Assembly (NCBI GenBank): GCA_009836005.1
Contig: VXWG01000053.1
Coordinates: 45,722-109,721 of the forward strand
Direction: 5' to 3'
DNA: 64,000 bases
Source of the DNA: Candidatus Palauibacter irciniicola
Lineage (GTDB): Bacteria > Gemmatimonadota > Gemmatimonadetes > Palauibacterales > Palauibacteraceae
Shown here: positions 2,406 through 11,453 of the stretch, one piece after another
Numbering within the stretch: the stretch's first letter is position 1
Layout: each line of letters starts with the position of its first letter
Notes under the pieces: generated by a model
What the model saw: only the letters and a program-made list of their open reading frames with translations
The model's database searches: none
Told to the model about the DNA's origin: nothing
Made by a program: the position numbers and the translations under genes

Positions 2406-2505
2406 TCCTCGAAAACCGGCCCGCCACGGACTGACCCAGCTCACCGCCGACTGACCGGGCGCTTGTTGACGCCGCCCCGGGCTCCGTGCATCTTCCGAAA
2501 AATCA

Positions 2506-2525
2506 TTTTTAGCCTAGGCTAAAAA
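2506..2525. promoter_or_regulatory. 20-bp perfect AT-rich palindrome TTTTTAGCCTAGGCTAAAAA, flanked by AAAAATC direct repeats; candidate operator for the downstream copper-oxidase operon
   Basis: Seen directly in the sequence, 22 bp upstream of the 2547 start codon. It is strikingly AT-rich in a roughly 70% GC background. Confidence 0.5.
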
Positions 2526-2546
2526 TCGCTCCGGGCCGCGGCCCGG

Positions 2547-3683
2547 ATGGGCGTTCGGGGGAAAACCGGAGAACGAGTGAAGCCGGATAGGTTGAGTCGA
2601 CGCGACTGGCTGAAGCTTGGTGCCGCGGGGGTGGCCGGCGTATCGGGCGCGACGGTGCTGGACCTGGCGTCCCGGGGCGGCGCGCGAGATGCCCTGGCGG
2701 CCAGCGGCGCCATGCCGCGCGAGCCGGGAGCGGACGCCGCCGCCGCGGGCCCGCACGCGGGACACCAGGAGGCGATGGGGATCGTCGGCATGCCCGGGCC
2801 CGACGGAGCGTTCGATCCGGCGGCCTTCCTCACGGACTTCGACTACGGGGAGGTCACGACCCGCGCCGACGGCCGCGTCGTGCGACGCTGGCAGATGGTG
2901 GCGCTGGACCGGGAGATCGAGATCGCGCCCGGCGTCTTCTTCCCGGCGTGGACCTACAACGGGCAGGTGCCGGGCCCGACCCTGCGCTGCACCGAGGGGG
3001 ACATCCTCCAGGTCGAGTTTACGAACGCGGGCTCGCACCCCCACACCATCCATTTCCACGGCACGCACCCGCCGGAGATGGACGGCTTCGAACCCATCGT
3101 GGAGCCGGGGCAGCGTTTCACCTACGAGTTCGAGGCGAAGCCGTTCGGGCTCCACCTGTACCACTGCCACACGATGCCGCTCAAGCGGCACATCCATAAG
3201 GGTCTGTATGGGGCGTTCATCGTCGATCCGCCCGAAGGCCGGGAACCGGCGCGGGAGATGGTCATGGTGATGAACGCGTTCGACAGCAACCTGGACGGCG
3301 ACAACGAGGTGTACGCCGTCAACACGTCGGCGTTCTACTACCACCACCATCCCGTGCGCGTGGGCGTGAACGACCTGTGCCGCATCTATCTCGTGAACAC
3401 GACCGAGTTCGACCTCATCAACTCGTTCCACCTGCACGCGGGCATGTTCAAGGTGTTCCGGACCGGTACGCGGCCGGACCAGTACGAACTCACGGACACG
3501 ATCATGATGTGCCAGGGCGAGCGTCACGTCCTCGAGTTCCGGCTCGAGAACCCCGGCATGCACATGTTCCACGCGCACCAGAGCGAGTTCGCGGAACTGG
3601 GGTGGATGGGCTTCTTCGAGGCGGTCGAGCGGCTCGCCGCCGGCGAGGGCGTGCCCGTGGGCCCCGCGCCGAGCGATGTCTGA
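2547..3683 (+). CDS. Tat-exported two-domain cupredoxin / multicopper-oxidase family protein (NirK-like copper motifs)
   Basis: Twin-arginine signal RRDWLKLGAAG. Copper-ligand motifs HPHTIHFHG, YHCHTMP...HIH, HLHAG and MFHAHQ. Size (378 aa) fits a 2-domain MCO/NirK fold. Confidence 0.8.
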   Translation: MGVRGKTGERVKPDRLSRRDWLKLGAAGVAGVSGATVLDLASRGGARDALAASGAMPREPGADAAAAGPHAGHQEAMGIVGMPGPDGAFDPAAFLTDFDYGEVTTRADGRVVRRWQMVALDREIEIAPGVFFPAWTYNGQVPGPTLRCTEGDILQVEFTNAGSHPHTIHFHGTHPPEMDGFEPIVEPGQRFTYEFEAKPFGLHLYHCHTMPLKRHIHKGLYGAFIVDPPEGREPAREMVMVMNAFDSNLDGDNEVYAVNTSAFYYHHHPVRVGVNDLCRIYLVNTTEFDLINSFHLHAGMFKVFRTGTRPDQYELTDTIMMCQGERHVLEFRLENPGMHMFHAHQSEFAELGWMGFFEAVERLAAGEGVPVGPAPSDV

Positions 3684-4902
3684 CGAGCGGTCCGAAGCCG
3701 CTCCGCGCCGGAGCGGCCCGGCGCGCTGGGTCCTGGGCCTCTTCCCGCTCGCGCTGCTGGCGGGGCTCGTCGCGTTTTTCTTCGGCGCCGATCCCACGGC
3801 CCCCTTCCGGGACGCCTTCCCGCCCGTCGAGGACCTCACGATCGAACGCGTGAGCTTCCCGGAGAACGGCGTCATGCGCGTGCACGTCGTGAACGGCGGT
3901 CCCGAGGCGGCCACCATCGCGCAGGTGATCGTCGACGATGCCTACTGGCAGTTCGAGATCGATGGCGATCCGACCCTGCCGCGTCTCGCCCGCGCCACCC
4001 TCGAACTGGACTATCCCTGGGTCGAAGGTGAACTCCACGTCATCCGGCTGGTGACCTCCACGGGACTCACCTTCGACCGCGAGGTGGCGGTAGCGACGCT
4101 CTCGCCGCGCCCCAACGCGCTTTACCTGACCACTTTCGGGCTACTCGGCCTCTACGCGGGCGTGATCCCCGTCCTCGTCGGCCTGTTGTGGTATCCCTTC
4201 CTGCGCCGGATCGACCGCAAGTGGATCCACTTCTATCTCAGCCTCACCGTGGGCCTGCTGGCGTTCCTCGTCGTCGATGCGTTCGAGGACACGCTCGAGG
4301 CGTCGGCGCTCGTGCCGGAGGGATTTCAGGCCGCCGGGCTCATCGCCGTCGGGGTCATCGGCGCCATCGTCGGCCTCAGGGCCCTCGGTAACCTCGGACG
4401 CGGCCGGAGCGGCGGAGACTCCGCGGGCGCGGGCGGCGGTGGGCCGAGCCCCGGGCTCACGGTGGCGTACCTGATCGCCATCAGCATCGGACTGCACAAC
4501 CTCGGCGAGGGGCTCGCGATCGGGGCGGCCTTCTCCCTCGGCGAGATCGCGCTCGGAAGCTTCCTCGTCATCGGCTTCGCGCTCCACAACACGACGGAGG
4601 GGCTGGCGATCGTCGCCCCCGTCGCGGACCGGCGGCCGGCGCTGCGGCACTTCGCCTTCATGGGCGGCATCGCCGGACTGCCGACCGTCCTGGGGGCGTG
4701 GGCGGGCGGTTTCTCCTACTCGCCGACGCTGGCGACCTTCTTCCTCGCCCTCGGCGCCGGAGCCATCCTGCAGGTCATCGTCGAGGTCACCCGGCTGATC
4801 CGGAAGAGCTGGCCGCAGGGCCTGTTCACCCCCCTCAACGCCACGGGCCTCCTCCTCGGCCTGCTGGTCATGTACGGCACCGCGCTCATGGTGACCGCCT
4901 AG
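3676..4902 (+). CDS. ZIP-family metal transporter with an extra N-terminal TM helix plus roughly 130-aa extracytoplasmic domain
   Basis: ZIP signature helices GLHNLGEGLAIG and ALHNTTEGLAI, and a Gly-rich cytoplasmic loop. The start overlaps the MCO stop by 8 nt (translational coupling). Confidence 0.7.
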   Translation: MSDERSEAAPRRSGPARWVLGLFPLALLAGLVAFFFGADPTAPFRDAFPPVEDLTIERVSFPENGVMRVHVVNGGPEAATIAQVIVDDAYWQFEIDGDPTLPRLARATLELDYPWVEGELHVIRLVTSTGLTFDREVAVATLSPRPNALYLTTFGLLGLYAGVIPVLVGLLWYPFLRRIDRKWIHFYLSLTVGLLAFLVVDAFEDTLEASALVPEGFQAAGLIAVGVIGAIVGLRALGNLGRGRSGGDSAGAGGGGPSPGLTVAYLIAISIGLHNLGEGLAIGAAFSLGEIALGSFLVIGFALHNTTEGLAIVAPVADRRPALRHFAFMGGIAGLPTVLGAWAGGFSYSPTLATFFLALGAGAILQVIVEVTRLIRKSWPQGLFTPLNATGLLLGLLVMYGTALMVTA

Positions 4903-4946
4903 CCTGACGGCGTAGACCGGTGTGGTGTCACACCAAAGGAGGCACG

Positions 4947-5378
4947 ATGCTCGGCGGCAGAAACCCCGGCCTCGGTCTGGCCATCCTTCGCGTCGCGGTC
5001 GGACTGATCTTCGTGATGCACGGCTGGCCAAAGCTGGCCGGCGGCATCGAGGGCACCGCGGCCTTCCTCGGGTCGCTCGGCGTCCCGCTCTCGGCGATCG
5101 GGGCGTGGGGGATCGCGCTGGCCGAGACCCTGGGCGGCGCATGCCTGATCGCGGGCCTGTTCGTGACGCCCTTCGCCCTGCTCCTCGCCGCGCACATGCT
5201 GGCGGGGATCTTTCTCGTGCACCTGGCCAACGGCTTCTACGTCGTGGGCCCGGGCCAGGGAGGCTACGAGTTCAACCTGCTCCTGATCGCCGCCCTGCTG
5301 ACCCTCGTGCTGGCCGGATCGGGGATCGCGACGCTCAAGAGCCTCTTCACGAGCGACGTCGAGGTGGTGATCGACTGA
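4947..5378 (+). CDS. DoxX-family membrane protein
   Basis: Roughly 140 aa with four predicted TM helices and an N-terminus LGLAILRVAVGLIFVMHGWPKL typical of DoxX. The ORF track starts at 4920; the ATG at 4947 is preferred. Confidence 0.65.
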   Translation: MLGGRNPGLGLAILRVAVGLIFVMHGWPKLAGGIEGTAAFLGSLGVPLSAIGAWGIALAETLGGACLIAGLFVTPFALLLAAHMLAGIFLVHLANGFYVVGPGQGGYEFNLLLIAALLTLVLAGSGIATLKSLFTSDVEVVID

Positions 5379-5926: not shown

Positions 5927-7717
5927 TCAATACGCGGCCGTGCGAAACACCGGCTGGAAGAGTCGGGTGCGGTGCGCGCAGACGGGGTCCGCGGGGCACG
6001 CCGCGCAGTCGGGTTCCGTCATCTCCGGGCAACGCGTCCGGTTCTGAAAGAAGAACCAGTCCACGGCCCCCATGGAGCGCCCGCTCAGCCGCCGGACCTC
6101 GCCCACCACCTCGTAACAGGCGGCGCGCACGGCCTCCTCCTCCTCCGCGCTCACAACCTCCCGCTTCGCGAGCTTCGCGGCCAGCGTCTCGTCGTTCACG
6201 GAGACGACGCCGAGCCGCAGGCAACTGCGCTGGCAGTGATAGTCGACGATCGGCGGCACGTCCTCCGCCTTCCCGAGCCGCAGGAAGCGTTCCGGCCGCT
6301 GGTTGAGGATCGCCGCGAGGAGGGCGGACTTCTTCCGCCACGGGTCCTCCTTGTAGCCGCCGACCGCATCGAGACGCGCGAGGAAGCGGGCGAGGGGTCG
6401 CTCCGTGGCGTTGGCTTCGGCCAGGAGCGACGCCGGGGTCAGGCCGAGGCCCAGCATGTCGCGGCCGTACGCGCGCGCGCACGCCGGATGGAGGGTGCCC
6501 GCGGGGAGCGGGTTGTGCCCGCCGTCGTCCCGCAGGCGGTGATCGAAGTCCGCGTCGTCGAGAGCGGCCTGACCGGCGGGGGCGAGTTCGTCCGGGGCTT
6601 CGCGGGCCCAGCGCCGGTAGGCGGCCCACAGGTAATCGCTTCCCTTGCGGGTCCGGCCGTCCAGAGAGGCGATCATGGGTTCGCCGTAGCGGCCCGCGCG
6701 CTCGTGCCAGAAACCGAACTGCTGCACGGTCCCGGCGAAGAAGAAATCGAGCGCCGCCGGATCGCCGGGTTCCGGAAAGTCCGCGCCGGTGAAGTCGAAC
6801 GCCGCCGCCTCCGGGGCCGTCGCGATGACCCCGGCCACCCGCCGAAAACGGTCCCGGTCGAGGCGGACCCGAGCATCTCGCGGCGCCGGTGGAGGCGGAC
6901 TGTCCGAGAGGAGCGGCGCCGGACCGATGTCCGTCACCGTCTCCGCGGCACAGGCCGCCGCAACGCGCGCGGCGATGGCGGGATGGTCGCCGGCCGCGAC
7001 CCTGGCCAGCGCCGTCCCGCAGAAGGTGTCGCCGGCGCCCGTCGGATCCACCTGCTCGACCTCGGGGGCGGGGACGTCGATCGCGTGGTCGCCCAGGACG
7101 ACGCGAGCCCCGCGCGGTCCCCGGGTGACGAAGACCGCGCGCCCCGGCGCGACCGCCACCCGATCGAGCGACCCGAAGAGGAGACCGGCCTCCTCTTCGT
7201 TGCAGAAGAAGTAGTGGGACGCTTCCACGACGCGCTCGACGACCTCCGGGTGCGCGCGGATCCCCGGCGCGTACGTCCCGCACCCCACGCGCACGCCCGC
7301 CGCGGCCAGCCGCCGCGCGAACCCCAACTGCAGCTCCGGGTCGAGGAGGGGGACGACGTACGCGAAGGCCCCCGGCCCCGCGTCGGGGATGTCGCCGTAG
7401 CGGATGTCCCCCTCGGAACCGCGCACCGCCTGGCGATAGACGGTCCGGCCGTCGGGGAAGTACTCGATCTCGAAGTGCGGGAGCGCGGAGGGCGGCACCG
7501 GCGGCCCCCGCCAGTCGAGGAGGCGGTCCGCCGGCTCGAGTTCCGCCGGCATGGGATCGGGGCGCGGCGCGACGACCGTGACGGCGGCTCCGACCCGCTG
7601 CGCCGCGAGCGCGGTGTAGAGTCCCGCGCCTCCGGCGGACCGCACGGAGCGGCCGCCGAGGTGCAGGAGGTCCAGTGAGGGGCTCCCGACCACGAGGAGC
7701 CGTGGCCGGGCGCTCAT
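5927..7717 (-). CDS. PfkB-family (ribokinase-like) kinase fused to a roughly 300-aa Cys-rich C-terminal domain of uncertain function
   Basis: The N-terminal half has PfkB motifs (GGxxxN-like region, DPTGAGDTF anion hole). The C-terminal half (FFAGTVQQFGFW...DYHCQRSCLRLGVV...CPEMTEPDCAACPADPVC) matches no family I can name with confidence. Confidence 0.65.
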   Translation of the reverse strand: MSARPRLLVVGSPSLDLLHLGGRSVRSAGGAGLYTALAAQRVGAAVTVVAPRPDPMPAELEPADRLLDWRGPPVPPSALPHFEIEYFPDGRTVYRQAVRGSEGDIRYGDIPDAGPGAFAYVVPLLDPELQLGFARRLAAAGVRVGCGTYAPGIRAHPEVVERVVEASHYFFCNEEEAGLLFGSLDRVAVAPGRAVFVTRGPRGARVVLGDHAIDVPAPEVEQVDPTGAGDTFCGTALARVAAGDHPAIAARVAAACAAETVTDIGPAPLLSDSPPPPAPRDARVRLDRDRFRRVAGVIATAPEAAAFDFTGADFPEPGDPAALDFFFAGTVQQFGFWHERAGRYGEPMIASLDGRTRKGSDYLWAAYRRWAREAPDELAPAGQAALDDADFDHRLRDDGGHNPLPAGTLHPACARAYGRDMLGLGLTPASLLAEANATERPLARFLARLDAVGGYKEDPWRKKSALLAAILNQRPERFLRLGKAEDVPPIVDYHCQRSCLRLGVVSVNDETLAAKLAKREVVSAEEEEAVRAACYEVVGEVRRLSGRSMGAVDWFFFQNRTRCPEMTEPDCAACPADPVCAHRTRLFQPVFRTAAY

Positions 7718-7727
7718 GCCGCCGGCG

Positions 7728-9107
7728 TCAGTCGCCCTGCTGCTGGTCCGTCGTGATGCGCCCGGCGGCGCCGGCGGGCCCGTTGTCCCAGTCCTGGGCG
7801 CTGGAGATGTTCGGCACGCCCCAGTCGTCGCCGTTCCAGCCCTGGAAGCCCTCCATCCGGAAGGTCCACAGACCCGTCGTCATGTCGCTCACCACGATGA
7901 GCCCGTCCGCGTTCCGGATGTCGACCCCGAACGTGCCGTTGAAGACAGGGGTCCGGTCGACGTTCGGCGGCCCCAGGTAGGTGTCGTAGTGGCCCACCGT
8001 CATCGGGTTCTCCGGGTCCATCATGTTGAACACGACGAGCCCGTCCAGGTAGCCGGACACGAACACGAGCGGCCAACGCACCTCGTGGTTGTGCACGAGG
8101 TTCTTCCAGTTCGCCGTCCACGCCGCGATCGGGCGGTTGATCGCGGACACCTCGCCGTTCAGCCCCGGCCTGAGGTCGAAGATCCTGAGCGGCGCGTACT
8201 GATACTCCGTCTCGGCGATCGCGAAGTTGCCGTCCGGCGTGGGCGTGAACGTGTGGCCGCTCCGAATCCCGGAGACCCCGACGATCTGCGTCAGAAGCTG
8301 GGGATCCTGGAGATCCGACACGTCGTAGATGTAGTAGCCGCCGGTGCCGCCGCCGTAGAAGCGGTCCGTCCCGGTTTCCGGGTGGTAGCCGAGATAGAAG
8401 TCGTGGTATCCCCGCCGCCGGTTCCCCTCCATCCCCTGATCCGGGACCGGGATCTGCGCCACCATCTGGTCGCCGCGCCCGTCGACGAGGGCGCCGAGGT
8501 CGTAGACGGCCGCGTACGGTCCCGAGACCGTGGCGACGAGATACACGTTCATGTTCGAGTGCTTGTAGATGAAGATGTTGTGGAAGCCGCCGGGGAGATC
8601 GGGCTCCTTGATGCGGGCCACCTCGCGCACCGTCGAGGCGTCCGGCAGTCCCGTGACGTCGAGGACGACGGCCCCCATGTCGGAGTCCGGGCCGCCCTGC
8701 CCGAACTGGAGCGACTGCACGACGTAGTAGCGGTCGCCCCACTTGAAGTGCTTCACGTCCATCCCGCCGGTGCGCTGGTGGAGGTCCTGGTCCTCGATCC
8801 GCCACTCGTAGAGCACCTCGGGGTTCTCCGGGTCCTCGATCGAGACGATGTCCAGCCCTTTCGGGCCGACCGGTCCGTACTGCATGCGCGCCACGTACGC
8901 GTAGGGCCGGTGCATCTCCTGCTCGATGTCCATGTCCGCGATGCTGAGCCGGGGCCCGAGCGGAATGTGGCCGAGCACTTCCATGTTCCGGCTGCCGCGC
9001 TCGACCACCCCGTCGATGAGCTGCGCGCTCAGCGCGTGCGGCGCGGCGAGAGCCGCTCCGAGCACGGCGGCCGCCGAGAGTGTCAGGGTCCGATTTCCAA
9101 CCTTCAT
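7728..9107 (-). CDS. Secreted beta-propeller-like hypothetical protein
   Basis: Start MKVGNRTLTLSAAAVLGAALAAPHALSA (signal peptide) with a GGAGGAAAGA ribosome-binding site just upstream. The protein is Gly/Asp/Tyr-rich with repeats, consistent with a beta-propeller. No confident family assignment. Confidence 0.5.
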   Translation of the reverse strand: MKVGNRTLTLSAAAVLGAALAAPHALSAQLIDGVVERGSRNMEVLGHIPLGPRLSIADMDIEQEMHRPYAYVARMQYGPVGPKGLDIVSIEDPENPEVLYEWRIEDQDLHQRTGGMDVKHFKWGDRYYVVQSLQFGQGGPDSDMGAVVLDVTGLPDASTVREVARIKEPDLPGGFHNIFIYKHSNMNVYLVATVSGPYAAVYDLGALVDGRGDQMVAQIPVPDQGMEGNRRRGYHDFYLGYHPETGTDRFYGGGTGGYYIYDVSDLQDPQLLTQIVGVSGIRSGHTFTPTPDGNFAIAETEYQYAPLRIFDLRPGLNGEVSAINRPIAAWTANWKNLVHNHEVRWPLVFVSGYLDGLVVFNMMDPENPMTVGHYDTYLGPPNVDRTPVFNGTFGVDIRNADGLIVVSDMTTGLWTFRMEGFQGWNGDDWGVPNISSAQDWDNGPAGAAGRITTDQQQGD

Positions 9108-9141
9108 TCTTTCCTCCGTTTTCGAACTGGCGGCCCGCGAG

Positions 9142-10833
9142 CTAGCCGGGGTCCACCGTGAACAGCATGGACATGCCGGCCTCCAGGTGCTCCGCAATAT
9201 GGCAGTGCGCCATCCAGCGGCCAGAGTTGGAGGCCTCGAGCAGGATGTCGAACGTCGACCCGACCGGGATCACCATCGTGTCCTTCCATGCGAGATTGTC
9301 CGACGGCACCCCGTCCCTCGCGAGAATCAGGAAGCGCTGCCCGTGGATGTGGATCGGGTGCTGCATGGGGTGGAACGAACGGCGCTGGTTGTGGATCCGG
9401 ATCTTGAGGATGTCCCCCTCCGCGAAGCGCCAGTCGATGTCCCCGTTCTCCTTCCCCGTGCGCGTGTCGCGCATGATCCACGTCAGGTTCTCCGACGTCG
9501 AGAGGTAGTTCATCATCGGCATCGCGTCCGTCCATTCGACGGGCGGGAAGTACAGCGTGTCGATCGCCATCACGGCGACGATGTCGCTGGGCAGGTCCCC
9601 CACGCGTGCCGTGAGTTCGATCTCGTGGTCGACGGGCCGGTCGAACTCGGCGCGGTAACGGTCGATGTCCTCGATGACGTCCGCGTGTTCGCGCAGCGTG
9701 GAGAACGCGTCCCCGTGGTCCTCCGCGACCGGTTCGTCGAGGACGGTGATGATCCCGAGCGTGTCCGTCTGCGGATAGAAGCGGCCGTTGAAGTGGTCGA
9801 TGGCCTGGATGGGGTTGAGGAGCGCGTACGTGCCGGGTTCGTCGAACCGCGCATCCACGATGTACCGCTGGGCGGGGGCGAGGACGACGTTGGAGACGAA
9901 GCTCTCGCGCTCGAACTTGCTCACGTCGGCGCCCACCAGCTTCATCTCCGCGCCCACCAGGACGAGGTTGAAGGTGCGCGTGTTCGCGACGTTCGTGAGA
10001 TAGAGCCGGCGGACCTCGCCGCGGCGGACCGTGGCCTCCCAGCGCGGCTCGCCGTTCACGAGCAACTGGTTCCCGAACCGGCCCATCAGCGTCTGGATGG
10101 CGGCTTCGCGTCCCCAGGGGAAGAGTCCGCCTTCGTCGACGAGCAGGTCGTCGAGCATGAGGAAGTCCTCGCCGTTCGCGGGGCCGTAGTAGTCCGCGGC
10201 AGGCGCGTCGACCAGCATGTTCCCGTACAGGCCGAGGTCCTGCTGGATGTCCTCGCGGTGGTGCGGGTGGTACCAGTAAAGACCGGCGTCGGGGAAGTAG
10301 ACCCGGTACATGAACGACTCGCCCGGGGCGACCGGGTCCTGGGTGACGCCGGGCACGCCGTCGAACTCGTTCTCGAGTCGCAGGCCGTGCCAGTGGACCG
10401 CCGTGGGCAGGTCGATGTGGTTCGTGAACAGGACGATGATCTCCGCGCCCTGCGGGACGCGGATGAGGGGTCCGGGATACTGCCCGTTGAAGCCGTACAT
10501 GGTGAAGGTCCGCGTCCCGATCGTGCGCCGGACGAACCCGGCCTCGAGACGGAGCGTGTCGCCGTCGGCCATCTCCACGACCTCGCGGAAGACCGCCTCC
10601 GGAAGCATGGCGGGATCGTGGCCGGGGTCGGGCAGGTACGGGGTCACTCCGGGGACGGCGCCCATCAGGCCCGGGAGCATCATCGGCATCGGGATCGGCT
10701 GCGGCGGCATCCGCCACACGGCCCCGATGCTGTCCGTCGCCATCATGTGGCCCGCGTGCTGTTGCCCCGCGGCCGGGGCGAGGCCCAGCCACAGCGGTGC
10801 GGAGAGGGTCGCGGCGACGGCCAGGTAGCGCAC
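9142..10833 (-). CDS. Three-domain multicopper oxidase, CopA/CueO-like, with a Met-rich segment
   Basis: Copper motifs HWHG, WYHPH, HPIHIHG and HCHIAEHLEAGM. Met-rich stretch MPPQPIPMPMMLPGLMG. N-terminal signal peptide. A GTG start at 10833 is inferred from the 652-aa ORF. Confidence 0.8.
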   Translation of the reverse strand: MRYLAVAATLSAPLWLGLAPAAGQQHAGHMMATDSIGAVWRMPPQPIPMPMMLPGLMGAVPGVTPYLPDPGHDPAMLPEAVFREVVEMADGDTLRLEAGFVRRTIGTRTFTMYGFNGQYPGPLIRVPQGAEIIVLFTNHIDLPTAVHWHGLRLENEFDGVPGVTQDPVAPGESFMYRVYFPDAGLYWYHPHHREDIQQDLGLYGNMLVDAPAADYYGPANGEDFLMLDDLLVDEGGLFPWGREAAIQTLMGRFGNQLLVNGEPRWEATVRRGEVRRLYLTNVANTRTFNLVLVGAEMKLVGADVSKFERESFVSNVVLAPAQRYIVDARFDEPGTYALLNPIQAIDHFNGRFYPQTDTLGIITVLDEPVAEDHGDAFSTLREHADVIEDIDRYRAEFDRPVDHEIELTARVGDLPSDIVAVMAIDTLYFPPVEWTDAMPMMNYLSTSENLTWIMRDTRTGKENGDIDWRFAEGDILKIRIHNQRRSFHPMQHPIHIHGQRFLILARDGVPSDNLAWKDTMVIPVGSTFDILLEASNSGRWMAHCHIAEHLEAGMSMLFTVDPG

Positions 10834-10859
10834 TGTCCTCGGTCGCCGCCCGGGTGGAA

Positions 10860-11453
10860 TCAGAAGTAGAGTTGGCAGTTCATGGCCTCGAACGGGCCGT
10901 GGCCGGCCATCGTGTGCAGCCGGCCGGAGGGGGAGAGGCCGGTGAGCACGATCGGCCCCTGCCAGCGCTCGACGTCGGTCGACGCCTCCTCGCTCACGAA
11001 CACGAGGAACTGGTTCCACGCGAGCCGCGCCGTGAGCCGGTTCTCTTCGCCGAGCGTGCCGAGCTGCACCCACTCGTCGAGTTCGGGCTTCGCGGCCCAC
11101 GCGACGTAGACCGCCTCGCCGCGGCGGCGCAGCCGGTCGACCTGGATCTCGACGTCGAACGTCTGGAAGCCGCCGTCGTCCACGGTGATCTCGAACGGCG
11201 AGCCGGGCTGCGTGAGCGTCATCGACCCGCGGCTCCCGGGGGCGCTCTGCGTGCCCGAGAGGGGAACCACTTCGGGCGTGACGAGGCAGGCGTCGATCCG
11301 GGGCGTTGCGTCAACCCACGGCGCCGCGCCGGCTGGAGCCGGGATGTCACTCGGCCCGGCAGCCCGTGCCTCGCCCGATACGAGCGAGCCGAGGGCGATC
11401 GCGAAGACGGCGGTGGCGCCGATCGCGCCGGTGTGCGGTTTCATGCGCTTCAT
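10860..11453 (-). CDS. Small secreted hypothetical protein
   Basis: The C-terminal 197 aa of the 467-aa track ORF start MKRMKPHTGAIGATAVFAIALGSLVSGEARA (signal peptide), with an ATG at 11453. No recognizable domain. It lies between the dioxygenase and MCO genes. Confidence 0.5.
   Translation of the reverse strand: MKRMKPHTGAIGATAVFAIALGSLVSGEARAAGPSDIPAPAGAAPWVDATPRIDACLVTPEVVPLSGTQSAPGSRGSMTLTQPGSPFEITVDDGGFQTFDVEIQVDRLRRRGEAVYVAWAAKPELDEWVQLGTLGEENRLTARLAWNQFLVFVSEEASTDVERWQGPIVLTGLSPSGRLHTMAGHGPFEAMNCQLYF

What the first reader, a model, noticed from the sequence alone, without database searches (positions are those of the whole stretch)
2496..5378. AT-rich 20-bp perfect palindrome controlling a Tat-cupredoxin oxidase / N-terminally extended ZIP / DoxX operon
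- **Palindrome:** TTTTTAGCCTAGGCTAAAAA, flanked by AAAAATC direct repeats, is an obvious operator-like element in GC-rich DNA, 22 bp before the first gene.
- **Oxidase:** a 2-domain cupredoxin oxidase with NirK-like rather than classical MCO T1-site spacing.
- **Transporter:** an 8-nt overlapping ZIP-family transporter whose N-terminus has an extra TM helix and a roughly 130-aa extracytoplasmic domain. It is coupled to a DoxX gene downstream.
- **Implication:** a ZIP importer translationally coupled to a secreted copper enzyme is not a described copper-handling arrangement. It may deliver metal for enzyme maturation or couple sensing to oxidation.
Basis: partly seen in the sequence, partly recalled or inferred. 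Interest (0 to 1): 0.55.

Follow-up and report, generated by a model that had tools for sequence, protein, structure and literature searches.

The report
Manganese-sensor operator before oxidase–ZIP importer operon
The AT-rich palindrome is real and is almost certainly the binding site of a manganese-sensing (MntR/DtxR-family) repressor, not a copper regulator, and it controls a copper oxidase plus ZIP metal importer gene pair that is conserved in hundreds of bacterial and some archaeal species but whose joint job has never been tested.

Summary
A perfect palindrome (window 2505-2526) lies upstream of a Tat-signal two-domain multicopper oxidase (MCO, 2577-3683). A ZIP transporter with an extra N-terminal helix and a ~100-aa ectodomain overlaps it by 8 nt (3676-4902). 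DoxX follows (4947-5378).

The copper reading does not hold.
- **Box identity:** TTTAG-N6-CTAAA has the same half-sites and spacing as the crystallographically defined operator of the Deinococcus manganese sensor DR2539.
- **Conservation:** the box sits at the 5' end of MCO-ZIP operons in 58 of 81 related loci across about ten phyla, inside or just after a conserved promoter-like element.
- **Linked regulators:** 29 of 80 genome loci carry an adjacent DtxR-family regulator with a manganese-type metal site. Sinorhizobium and Pseudosulfitobacter plasmids instead carry a short-type mntR. The Sinorhizobium intergenic region has enterobacterial-type MntR boxes.
- **Independent check:** a metagenome scan finds the box upstream of mntR-type regulator, Nramp/mntH-like and ZnuA/TroA-family binding-protein genes.

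MCO-ZIP adjacency is already noted in ammonia-oxidising archaea. Manganese control and the breadth of the bacterial and haloarchaeal distribution appear undescribed.

The most likely function is a manganese-starvation-induced, oxidase-assisted divalent-metal import module. The oxidase's role is inferred only. No regulator gene was found in this window.

The parts
2466..2494 (+). Promoter-like element: TTGACG (2466-2471), a 17-nt spacer, then CATCTT (2489-2494)
   Evidence: TTGAC is invariant and CATCTT is kept in 8 of 10 close relatives. A TTGAC hexamer lies 16, 26-30 or 37-42 nt upstream of the box in most of 58 loci, against 7 scattered hits in the mirror control. The consensus promoter scan does not call it, because the -10 matches only 3 of 6. 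The transcription start is inferred, not shown.
2505..2526 (.). 22-bp perfect palindrome ATTTTTAGCCTAGGCTAAAAAT: predicted operator of an MntR/DR2539-type (DtxR-family) manganese-dependent repressor
   Evidence: Unique in the window. Conserved at orthologous positions. Same TTTAG-N6-CTAAA layout as the DR2539 operator ATTTTAGTCGCGCCTAAAAT. 60 of 66 matches at up to 1 mismatch fall in the 2.8% of sequence that is the operon 5' end. The same box class lies upstream of mntR-type regulator, Nramp/mntH-like and ZnuA/TroA-family genes in metagenomes.
2530..2547 (+). GC-rich perfect palindrome TCCGGGCCGCGGCCCGGA in the predicted 5' leader; role unknown
   Evidence: Read. Pairing is kept in L008-L011, altered in L012, and absent in L013 and L005. 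It folds as a hairpin in the leader RNA. The scan flags it as terminator-like only on the minus strand, where no gene ends.
2577..3683 (+). Tat-signal two-domain multicopper oxidase (368 aa from GTG 2577), with T1 copper in domain 1 only and a complete trinuclear cluster
   Evidence: Pfam Cu-oxidase_3 and Cu-oxidase_2. Closest solved chains are 7RAB (E 2e-108) and 3GDC (E 4e-103), then 9CCK, the N. maritimus MCO4. H159, H161, H196, C197, H198, H205, L210, H285, H287, H332 and H334 are invariant in 34 relatives. The NirK model scores 98.8 bits against a cut-off of 296.
3676..4902 (+). ZIP-family importer (408 aa) with an N-terminal anchor helix, a FlaF/archaellin-like beta-sandwich ectodomain and an eight-helix ZIP core carrying two HNxxEG motifs
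4947..5378 (+). DoxX-family membrane protein (143 aa), a lineage-specific third gene
   Evidence: Pfam DoxX 57.9 bits. Present after ZIP only in Palauibacter-like and a few other Gemmatimonadota loci. A DoxD/DoxX gene is divergent from the pair in Deinococcus sp. QL22.

Best explanation
The palindrome is the operator of a manganese-sensing repressor of the DtxR family, of the MntR/DR2539 type.

**Proposed regulation**
- The box lies immediately after a conserved promoter-like element.
- When cytoplasmic Mn2+ is sufficient, a metal-loaded repressor dimer would occupy the TTTAG-N6-CTAAA half-sites and block transcription of the mco-zip(-doxX) operon.
- When manganese runs low, the repressor releases and the operon is expressed.

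**Proposed products and function**
- A Tat-exported two-domain multicopper oxidase that reduces O2 to water.
- A ZIP importer whose FlaF-like ectodomain faces the same compartment as the oxidase.
- The two act together as a divalent-metal acquisition module, most likely for Mn2+.

**What is shown**
- The box, its conservation and its position.
- Its match to a solved Mn-sensor operator.
- Its linkage to manganese-type regulators.
- The copper-site and ZIP-fold assignments.

**What is inferred**
- Repression rather than activation.
- Manganese as both signal and cargo.
- Physical or functional coupling of the oxidase to the importer.

My preferred guess for the oxidase is that it removes competing or toxic reduced metals (Fe2+, Cu+) at the mouth of a poorly selective importer. 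It may draw on a variable small redox partner.
For: **The box**
- Its half-sites and spacing match the DR2539 operator solved in complex with the protein.
- It also contains the TAGC-N4-GCTA core of the enterobacterial MntR consensus.
- It is conserved upstream of MCO-ZIP in close relatives with non-compensatory changes.
- It occurs in 58 of 81 loci from about ten phyla, with roughly 350-fold positional enrichment.
- It lies within or just after a TTGAC-containing promoter-like element.

**The regulators**
- A DtxR-family gene is adjacent in 29 of 80 genome loci and in L007.
- Its best solved matches are 5ZR4 (E 1e-46), which I recall to be M. tuberculosis MntR, and DR2539 (E 1e-44).
- All 30 have Asp or Asn at the position of DtxR Met10 and Glu or Asp at the position of Cys102.
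- The four Asn-type regulators coincide with a variant box or no standard box: TTTTGAC-N2-GTCAAAA in two loci, a degenerate version in a third.

**Cultured organisms**
- The same trio is annotated in Deinococcus sp. QL22, Arthrobacter sp. Rue61a, Halomarina and Haloferax mediterranei. All but Arthrobacter, whose best match has one mismatch, carry a perfect TTAG-N6-CTAA core upstream.
- Two alphaproteobacterial plasmids carry a short mntR. The S. meliloti intergenic region has ATAGC-N4-GCTAT boxes; Pseudosulfitobacter has a TTAG-N6-CTAA box.

**Independent scan**
- Of 120 metagenome loci with the box, the only recurrent flanking genes of known metal function are mntR-type regulators (about 20 loci), Nramp (4) and ZnuA/TroA-family binding proteins (3). 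A pterin-4a dehydratase (3 loci, divergent from mntR) and an outer-membrane channel family (2) also recur.
- One locus has mntR-MCO-ZIP-Nramp in a row.
Against: - No DtxR/MntR gene lies in the 64-kb window, and none could be located for the genus.
- No transcription start, binding or expression data exist for this operon.
- DR2539 has been reported to respond to both Mn and Fe (title of PMC3327659), so the signal could be Fe or mixed.
- Multicopper oxidases are better known for oxidising Mn(II), which would work against manganese uptake.
- Some plasmid copies sit in copper or heavy-metal resistance regions and lack a recognisable box (Rhodococcus ruber, Gloeocapsa).
- In Nitrososphaera viennensis the analogous pair rises mildly under copper limitation.
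- 23 of 81 loci lack a match at up to 1 mismatch in the scanned 5' windows.
Confidence: 0.72

Rival explanations
1. The palindrome is the operator of a copper-responsive regulator, and the operon is a copper-handling unit. In this reading the ZIP brings in copper to load the Tat-exported oxidase, or, as proposed for archaea, the oxidase converts Cu+ to Cu2+ for ZIP uptake.
For: - The oxidase needs four coppers and is Tat-targeted, so it may fold with cofactor in the cytoplasm.
- Archaeal MCO1 and its adjacent permease are mildly induced under copper limitation and were proposed as a copper-uptake pair.
- Some plasmid copies lie near copper-resistance genes or a copper ATPase.
- Cupredoxin genes follow the pair in several lineages.
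Against: - The box does not resemble CsoR, CopY or CueR sites as I recall them. It matches a manganese-sensor operator exactly in layout.
- Every regulator found linked to the pair is DtxR/MntR type, apart from ArsR-ATPase pairs that look like separate units. None is a copper sensor.
- The same box class sits before mntH-like, mntR-type and ZnuA/TroA-family genes.
Confidence: 0.1
2. The regulator senses Fe2+ (IdeR/DtxR-like), and the pair is a ferroxidase-permease iron-uptake system. It would be analogous to yeast Fet3-Ftr1, with a ZIP taking the permease role.
For: - The regulator belongs to the DtxR family and carries the FeoA/SH3-like third domain.
- DR2539 was described as a dual Mn(II)/Fe(II) repressor.
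- The oxidase-plus-permease logic is established for iron, and a Fet3-plus-ZIP idea exists for Paracoccidioides.
Against: - The primary metal site lacks the Met/Cys ligands typical of iron sensors in all 30 linked regulators.
- The box co-occurs with Nramp and with a short-type mntR.
- ZIP transporters carry divalent ions, so Fe3+ made by a ferroxidase would not be an expected cargo (established knowledge of the family).
Confidence: 0.13
3. The palindrome acts at the RNA level, as a leader hairpin, attenuator or terminator, rather than as a protein-binding DNA site.
For: The leader can fold into two hairpins, with MFE -32.1 kcal/mol and z-score -2.2. A terminator-like call exists on the minus strand.
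Against: - Any palindrome folds, so the fold itself carries little weight.
- Substitutions in relatives are not compensatory, and the central 6 nt are free and often asymmetric, while the outer TTTAG/CTAAA stay fixed.
- No Rfam family matches.
- No minus-strand gene ends here, and there is no U-run on the plus strand.
Confidence: 0.03

Closest known systems
DR2539 (Deinococcus radiodurans Mn sensor, DtxR family) and its operator in the mntH (dr1709) promoter
   Same: The half-sites and spacing are the same: ATTTTAG-N6-CTAAAAT against ATTTTTAG-N6-CTAAAAAT here. Regulators linked to the gene pair elsewhere match DR2539 at E 1e-44 and share its Asp/Glu/Glu/His primary site.
   Different: The target here is an oxidase-ZIP operon rather than an Nramp gene. 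The cognate regulator of this genome was not found. No binding data exist.
Enterobacterial and alphaproteobacterial MntR box (AACATAGCnnnnGCTATGTT)
   Same: The TAGC-N4-GCTA core is shared. The S. meliloti plasmid copy of the same gene pair carries this box type, and both alphaproteobacterial plasmids carry a gene PGAP names mntR.
   Different: The flanks here are T/A runs rather than AACA/TGTT. That matches the three-domain DR2539/Mtb-MntR-type regulators rather than the short MntR.
'MCO1 + ZIP' gene pair of ammonia-oxidising archaea (Kerou et al. 2016, as cited in PMC7785015 and PMC5817080)
   Same: A two-domain MCO lies directly next to a ZIP permease. Leucine is at the axial T1 position. 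The function is untested.
   Different: Its proposed role was copper uptake and no regulator was assigned. Whether the archaeal ZIP has the same ectodomain, or the same box, was not tested here. MCO1 was reported as restricted to Thaumarchaeota, so the bacterial oxidases are probably a sister group.
Fet3-Ftr1, EfeUOB and FtrABCD oxidase-coupled iron permeases
   Same: A secreted copper oxidase is genetically coupled to an importer and induced by metal starvation.
   Different: The permease is a ZIP, not an Ftr1/EfeU type with REXXE motifs. The regulator is a manganese sensor. The oxidised product would not be a normal ZIP substrate, so the coupling logic must differ.
Type C two-domain multicopper oxidases (PDB 3GDC, 7RAB; more distantly 2ZWN, 3G5W) and N. 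maritimus MCO4 (9CCK)
   Same: Two cupredoxin domains, T1 copper in domain 1 only, eight-histidine trinuclear cluster, and NirK-like Cys-His spacing.
   Different: No substrate is known for the closest structures. MCO4 oxidises hydroxylamine and has an extra cupredoxin domain that this protein lacks.

Membership tests
MntR/DR2539-type (DtxR-family) operator | Inverted repeat with TTTAG and CTAAA half-sites separated by 6 nt, as in the operator solved with DR2539 | tested here: met
   The window has ATTTTTAGCCTAGGCTAAAAAT. The DR2539 site is ATTTTAGTCGCGCCTAAAAT.
MntR/DR2539-type (DtxR-family) operator | Position overlapping or abutting the core promoter of the regulated gene | tested here: inconclusive
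   A conserved TTGACG-N17-CATCTT ends 10 nt before the box, and a TTGAC hexamer lies at fixed distances in most loci. However, the consensus scan calls no promoter and no transcription start is known.
MntR/DR2539-type (DtxR-family) operator | A cognate DtxR-family regulator with an acidic (Mn-type) primary site in the same genome | tested here: inconclusive
   None is present in the 64-kb window, and none was retrieved for the genus. One is present next to the same operon in 29 of 80 other genomes and on several plasmids.
MntR/DR2539-type (DtxR-family) operator | Recurrence of the same box before other manganese-homeostasis genes | tested here: met
   In the metagenome scan the box lies within 250 bp of the start of mntR-type genes (about 20 loci), Nramp (4) and ZnuA/TroA-family binding proteins (3). 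This was not testable within this organism's own genome.
MntR/DR2539-type (DtxR-family) operator | Mn2+-dependent protein binding | not testable with these tools
   Requires EMSA or footprinting.
Two-domain multicopper oxidase, T1 in domain 1 only (type C) | Two cupredoxin domains; H-C-H in domain 1 and H-x-H without Cys in domain 2; eight His for the trinuclear cluster | tested here: met
   Pfam shows two domains. H196-C197-H198 lies in domain 1 and H332-A-H334 in domain 2. All eight His are invariant.
Two-domain multicopper oxidase, T1 in domain 1 only (type C) | Homotrimer with the trinuclear cluster at subunit interfaces | not tested
   Only inferred from close homology to 3GDC and 7RAB.
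Copper nitrite reductase (NirK) | Catalytic Asp/His pair, a single T2 copper, and the family's equivalog score | tested here: not met
   TIGR02376 scores 98.8 bits against a cut-off of 296.3 and covers domain 1 only. Thr occupies the position where I place the NirK Asp (HPHTIH). A full trinuclear His set is present.
ZIP (Zrt/Irt-like) transporters | Eight-helix core with metal-binding motifs on helices 4 and 5 | tested here: met
   The model matches BbZIP with probability 1.0 and TM-score 0.66. GLHNLGEG and ALHNTTEG are invariant.
ZIP (Zrt/Irt-like) transporters | Pfam PF02535 gathering score | tested here: not met
   23.2 bits against a cut-off of 35.1 for this protein. Many close relatives do carry the precomputed PF02535 hit. 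This is a divergent subfamily.
Tat-exported protein | Twin-arginine motif S/T-R-R-x-F-L-K before a hydrophobic stretch | tested here: met
   SRRDWLKLGAAGVAG. R8 and R9 are at least 90% conserved. A tatA gene follows the pair in Cytobacillus. No dedicated predictor was run.
DoxX | Pfam PF07681 above the gathering score | tested here: met
   57.9 bits against 23.6. The HvfX equivalog is not met, at 38 bits against 80.
Archaeal 'MCO1 + ZIP' pair | Orthology of both proteins to the thaumarchaeal pair | not tested
   No thaumarchaeal sequence could be obtained. The names seen in searches were bacterial or haloarchaeal.

The most novel reading that the evidence does not exclude
The two-domain oxidase and the ectodomain-bearing ZIP form a physical, oxidase-gated import machine. 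This would be a third kind of oxidase-coupled metal uptake system, after Fet3-Ftr1 and EfeUOB/FtrABCD.
- The oxidase docks on the FlaF-like ectodomain and conditions what reaches the pore. For example, it could burn off Fe2+ and Cu+ so that only Mn2+ enters. It would be fed or relieved by an interchangeable redox partner (DoxX, cupredoxin or Rieske protein).
- The module is a mobile, manganese-regulated unit present in more than 500 bacterial species and in haloarchaea.
- By extension, the long-puzzling MCO1-ZIP pair of ammonia-oxidising archaea would serve manganese rather than copper.
Probability: 0.25. Interest if true: 0.8.

Novelty: new variant of a known kind. Interest (0 to 1): 0.6.

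Why it matters
- **A copper enzyme in a manganese regulon.** Manganese regulons are thought to consist of importers, exporters and a few sparing enzymes. A copper oxidase locked to an importer under a manganese sensor does not fit that picture, because such oxidases are usually discussed as manganese oxidisers or copper detoxifiers.
- **Breadth.** The pair is conserved with overlapping genes in at least 592 species-level genomes, 551 sequence clusters and 149 plasmids, half of them conjugative.
- **Testability.** Carriers include tractable organisms (Sinorhizobium meliloti, Deinococcus, Arthrobacter, Haloferax mediterranei), so the function can be tested directly.
- **Archaeal link.** The result gives a concrete alternative hypothesis for the uncharacterised MCO1-ZIP pair of ammonia-oxidising archaea.
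- **Ectodomain.** It flags an undescribed prokaryotic ZIP ectodomain.

Tried and rejected
- **Rfam:** a scan of the leader found nothing relevant.
- **Promoter scan:** the consensus scan calls no promoter. The promoter is therefore inferred from conservation only.
- **RNA or terminator reading:** rejected. See the rival explanations.
- **NirK reading:** rejected.
- **Regulator in this organism:** tblastn of the whole window found nothing. A profile search returned only Gemmatimonadales proteins in the top 120.
- **Archaeal members:** a look-up of ten distant family representatives gave only bacterial or unnamed entries. Haloarchaeal members turned up later through the plasmid search.
- **AlphaFold database fold library:** unavailable.
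- **Neighbour census by ORF clustering:** partly swamped by spurious high-GC ORFs. A targeted 'third gene' census worked better.
- **P-type ATPase link:** P1B ATPases occur in only about 10 loci and carry mixed motifs. They are not part of the core.
- **Literature:** searches for an MntR-controlled oxidase or MCO-ZIP pair found nothing. No paper on PDB 7RAB was found.


Full report
**1. What is in the window**

The sequence at 2505-2526 is a perfect 22-bp palindrome, ATTTTTAGCCTAGGCTAAAAAT, sitting in roughly 70% G+C DNA. It is unique in the 64-kb window at up to three mismatches, and no shuffle produced a match. No looser TTTAG-N6-CTAAA or TAG-N6-CTA pattern occurs elsewhere in the window.

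The genes on the plus strand run as follows.
- queG (177-1307).
- A fatty-acid desaturase (1353-2405).
- A two-domain multicopper oxidase (MCO).
- A ZIP-like transporter that overlaps the MCO by 8 nt (ATGTCTGA).
- A DoxX gene starting 44 nt after the ZIP stop.

Gene calls in relatives and a GGAG-N5 Shine-Dalgarno place the oxidase start at GTG 2577 rather than ATG 2547. The palindrome therefore ends 51 nt, not 22 nt, before the start. Best hits at 94-98% identity are named Gemmatimonadota / Candidatus Palauibacter.

**2. The proteins**

*Oxidase.*
- It has Cu-oxidase_3 and Cu-oxidase_2 domains and the twin-arginine motif SRRDWLK.
- Thirty-four relatives keep the eight histidines of a trinuclear cluster invariant: H159, H161, H196, H198, H285, H287, H332 and H334. 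They also keep C197, H205 (Cys+8) and L210.
- Type 1 copper is therefore in domain 1 only, with NirK-like spacing and a non-coordinating axial leucine.
- It is not a nitrite reductase. The NirK equivalog scores 98.8 bits against a cut-off of 296, and the position I align with the NirK catalytic Asp holds Thr.
- The closest solved chains are 7RAB and 3GDC (E about 1e-108 and 1e-103). Next comes 9CCK, the Nitrosopumilus MCO4 that oxidises hydroxylamine.

*Transporter.*
- It scores below the Pfam Zip threshold (23.2 against 35.1). It nevertheless has both HNxxEG motifs, and its model matches BbZIP (probability 1.0, TM-score 0.66).
- In front of the eight-helix core lie a helix (residues 15-38) and a beta-sandwich (residues 54-138).
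- This layout puts the sandwich outside the cytoplasm, in the compartment to which Tat delivers the oxidase.

**3. Conservation of the pair**

- A profile scan of one genome per species found at least 592 loci encoding this ectodomain-ZIP.
- The best 80 loci span Gemmatimonadota, Acidobacteriota, Chloroflexota, Armatimonadota, Latescibacterota, Poribacteria, NC10, Fraserbacteria, Actinomycetes and others.
- The oxidase lies directly upstream of the ZIP in all 78 loci that contain upstream DNA.
- A profile search of 1.84 billion representative proteins gives 551 clusters at E ≤ 1e-30.
- 149 plasmids carry the ZIP, 74 of them conjugative. Hosts include cultured Deinococcus, Rubrobacter, Arthrobacter, Rhodococcus, Sinorhizobium, Pseudosulfitobacter, Cytobacillus, cyanobacteria and haloarchaea.
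- DoxX is not part of the core. It follows the ZIP only in Palauibacter-like lineages and a few others.
- The third gene varies between lineages:

| Third gene | Where found |
|---|---|
| Outer-membrane channel family (Phenol_MetA_deg) | 14 Gemmatimonadales loci |
| DoxX | 10 loci |
| Cupredoxin_1 | 6 loci |
| YceI | 5 loci |
| Regulator gene | 4 loci |
| Plastocyanin-like protein | haloarchaea |
| Rieske protein | Rhodococcus, Gloeocapsa |
| TatA | Cytobacillus |
| Nramp | 1 locus (L061) |

**4. What the palindrome is**

*Close relatives.* The box is kept with one to three substitutions that do not compensate each other. TTGAC, the flanking ATTTTT, and CTAAA are invariant.

*All related loci.* A TTTAG-N6-CTAAA match with at most one mismatch lies at the 5' end of the operon in 58 of 81 loci. 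When a regulator gene leads the operon, the match lies in front of that gene. Sixty of 66 such matches, and 37 of 39 perfect ones, fall in the 2.8% of sequence that forms these 5' regions. The central six bases vary freely. This pattern fits a protein site with two half-sites, not an RNA stem.

*Promoter context.* A TTGAC hexamer lies 16, 26-30 or 37-42 nt upstream of the box in most loci. A mirrored control gives seven scattered hits. The box thus sits inside or just after the core promoter, which is the position of a repressor site. This step is inferred, because no transcription start is known.

**5. Which regulator**

- In 29 of 80 genome loci, and in the metagenome locus L007, a DtxR-family gene lies next to the pair. 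It may be upstream, divergent or downstream.
- Its best solved relatives are 5ZR4 (E 1e-46), which I recall to be Mycobacterium tuberculosis MntR, and the Deinococcus radiodurans manganese sensor DR2539 (8PVT, E 1e-44).
- DR2539 was crystallised on its operator from the mntH promoter, ATTTTAGTCGCGCCTAAAAT. That site has the same half-sites and spacing as the window's box.
- The DR2539 paper states that an acidic primary site (Asp11, Glu102, Glu105, His106) marks manganese-specific members, whereas iron sensors use sulphur ligands.
- All 30 linked regulators have Asp (26) or Asn (4) at the first of these positions and Glu or Asp at the second. Glu and His at the remaining two positions are invariant.
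- In two of the four Asn-type loci the best match upstream of the oxidase is the variant TTTTGAC-N2-GTCAAAA. A third has a degenerate version, and the fourth has no match there. This hints at co-variation of regulator and site.

**6. Cultured organisms**

| Organism (replicon) | Regulator next to MCO-ZIP | Box found upstream |
|---|---|---|
| Deinococcus sp. QL22 (plasmid) | 'metal-dependent transcriptional regulator', with DoxD, divergent | TTTTTAGGCAGACCTAATAT and GTTAGGGCACCCTAAAA |
| Arthrobacter sp. Rue61a (p232) | 'metal-dependent transcriptional regulator', divergent | one-mismatch match |
| Halomarina sp. BCD28 (plasmid) | 'metal-dependent transcriptional regulator', leads the operon | ATTTTAGACGCGTCTAAATA |
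| Haloferax mediterranei (pHME322) | 'metal-dependent transcriptional regulator', downstream | AGTTTAGACATGTCTAAGTA |
| Sinorhizobium meliloti HM006 (accessory plasmid) | gene PGAP names mntR (short type), divergent | AGTATAGCCGCGGCTATTAT and GTTATAGCCCTTGCTATAAT |
| Pseudosulfitobacter (plasmid P3) | gene PGAP names mntR (short type), divergent | TTATTAGCCTATGCTAACTT |

Sources for the table are.

The two S. meliloti sites match the enterobacterial MntR consensus AACATAGCnnnnGCTATGTT. Two different MntR subtypes have therefore been recruited to the same gene pair.

**7. Independent test of the box class**

Most are chance hits in AT-rich DNA. Five gene families recur starting within 250 bp of the site.
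- DtxR/MntR-type regulators: 17 loci by clustering, about 20 by tblastn.
- Nramp: 4 loci, three of them on contigs with G+C above 60%.
- A ZnuA/TroA-family binding protein: 3 loci.
- A pterin-4a dehydratase divergent from mntR: 3 loci.
- An outer-membrane channel family (Phenol_MetA_deg): 2 loci.

**8. Mechanism**

*Best supported.* A manganese-loaded repressor binds the box and shuts the operon. Manganese shortage opens it. This yields a periplasmic O2-reducing copper oxidase and a ZIP importer that work together.

*Direction of transport.* ZIPs move divalent metals into the cytoplasm (established family knowledge), so manganese import fits both the regulator and the transporter.

*Role of the oxidase.* This is the weak step. 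My preferred inference is that it oxidises Fe2+ or Cu+ at the entrance of a poorly selective importer. That would prevent mis-import and oxidative damage when manganese is scarce. The recurrent small redox partners suggest electron exchange with the oxidase, but the chemistry is unknown.

*Alternatives.* Copper supply for the oxidase and a ferroxidase-permease iron system are given as rivals.

*Evidence that cuts against the manganese reading.*
- No regulator gene was found in this window or for this genus.
- DR2539 has been described as a dual Mn/Fe repressor.
- Some plasmid copies lack a box and sit in copper or heavy-metal resistance regions.
- The archaeal pair rises mildly under copper limitation.

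**9. Comparison with what is known, and novelty**

- The box is a new member of a known operator class.
- The adjacency of a two-domain oxidase and a ZIP is recorded for ammonia-oxidising archaea as 'MCO1 + ZIP', with a proposed copper-uptake role.
- In the held library I found no paper that describes any of the following:
  - manganese-sensor control of such a pair;
  - its wide bacterial and haloarchaeal distribution;
  - the ZIP ectodomain.
- The Haloferax mediterranei copper survey lists a pHME322 copper nitrite reductase, probably this oxidase, without noting a cluster. [quoted passage not shown]
- I rate the system as a new variant of a known kind, with moderate to high interest. The interest comes mainly from how conserved, mobile and directly testable it is.

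Noticed in passing
window 9142-11100 (-): A second, three-domain multicopper oxidase (Cu-oxidase_3, Cu-oxidase, Cu-oxidase_2) lies about 4 kb downstream on the other strand. The same neighbour is kept in related Palauibacter-like loci (L001, L005, L008, L010, L011).
   Followed up: partly
window 2530-2547: An 18-bp perfect GC-rich palindrome, TCCGGGCCGCGGCCCGGA, sits in the leader right after the AT-rich box. Pairing is kept in the closest relatives but the element is absent in L013 and L005. Its role is unknown.
   Followed up: partly
[not shown]
   Followed up: partly
L049, L069, L074, L085 (Acidobacteriota loci): Regulators with Asn instead of Asp at the first metal ligand (ENYLK) are divergently oriented. 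In L074 and L085 the best match upstream of the oxidase is a different palindrome, TTTTGAC-N2-GTCAAAA. L069 has a degenerate version and L049 has no match there. This suggests a co-varying regulator and operator subtype.
   Followed up: partly
L021-L035, L054, L062 (third gene after ZIP); L181, L196 (next to box): An outer-membrane channel family (Pfam Phenol_MetA_deg) follows the ZIP in 14 Gemmatimonadales loci. It also starts next to the same box in two metagenome contigs. It is a candidate outer-membrane manganese channel.
   Followed up: partly
L132, L178, L191 (high-GC metagenome contigs): A pterin-4a-carbinolamine dehydratase gene is divergently paired with an MntR-type gene, with the box between them. 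L191 carries exactly the box variant seen in L010 and L013 (ATTTTTAGCCTAGACTAAAAAT).
   Followed up: no
L012, L013 9700-11740 (and L002-L004): In some Palauibacter genomes a P1B ATPase with a CPCALVIA motif (I read this as Zn/Cd/Pb-type) directly follows DoxX. An AbiEii-type toxin-antitoxin pair comes next. Both are absent from the window.
   Followed up: partly
window 5927-7717 (-) and 7728-9197 (-): A 596-aa protein has only a central PfkB kinase match and a long unassigned remainder. Next to it is a 489-aa protein with no Pfam match. Both are conserved next to the operon in relatives.
   Followed up: no
PLSDB plasmids: The oxidase-ZIP pair is carried on 149 plasmids, 74 of them predicted conjugative. 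They include 37 near-identical Pseudosulfitobacter plasmids from diatom cultures and many Rhodococcus plasmids. The module is therefore mobile.
   Followed up: partly
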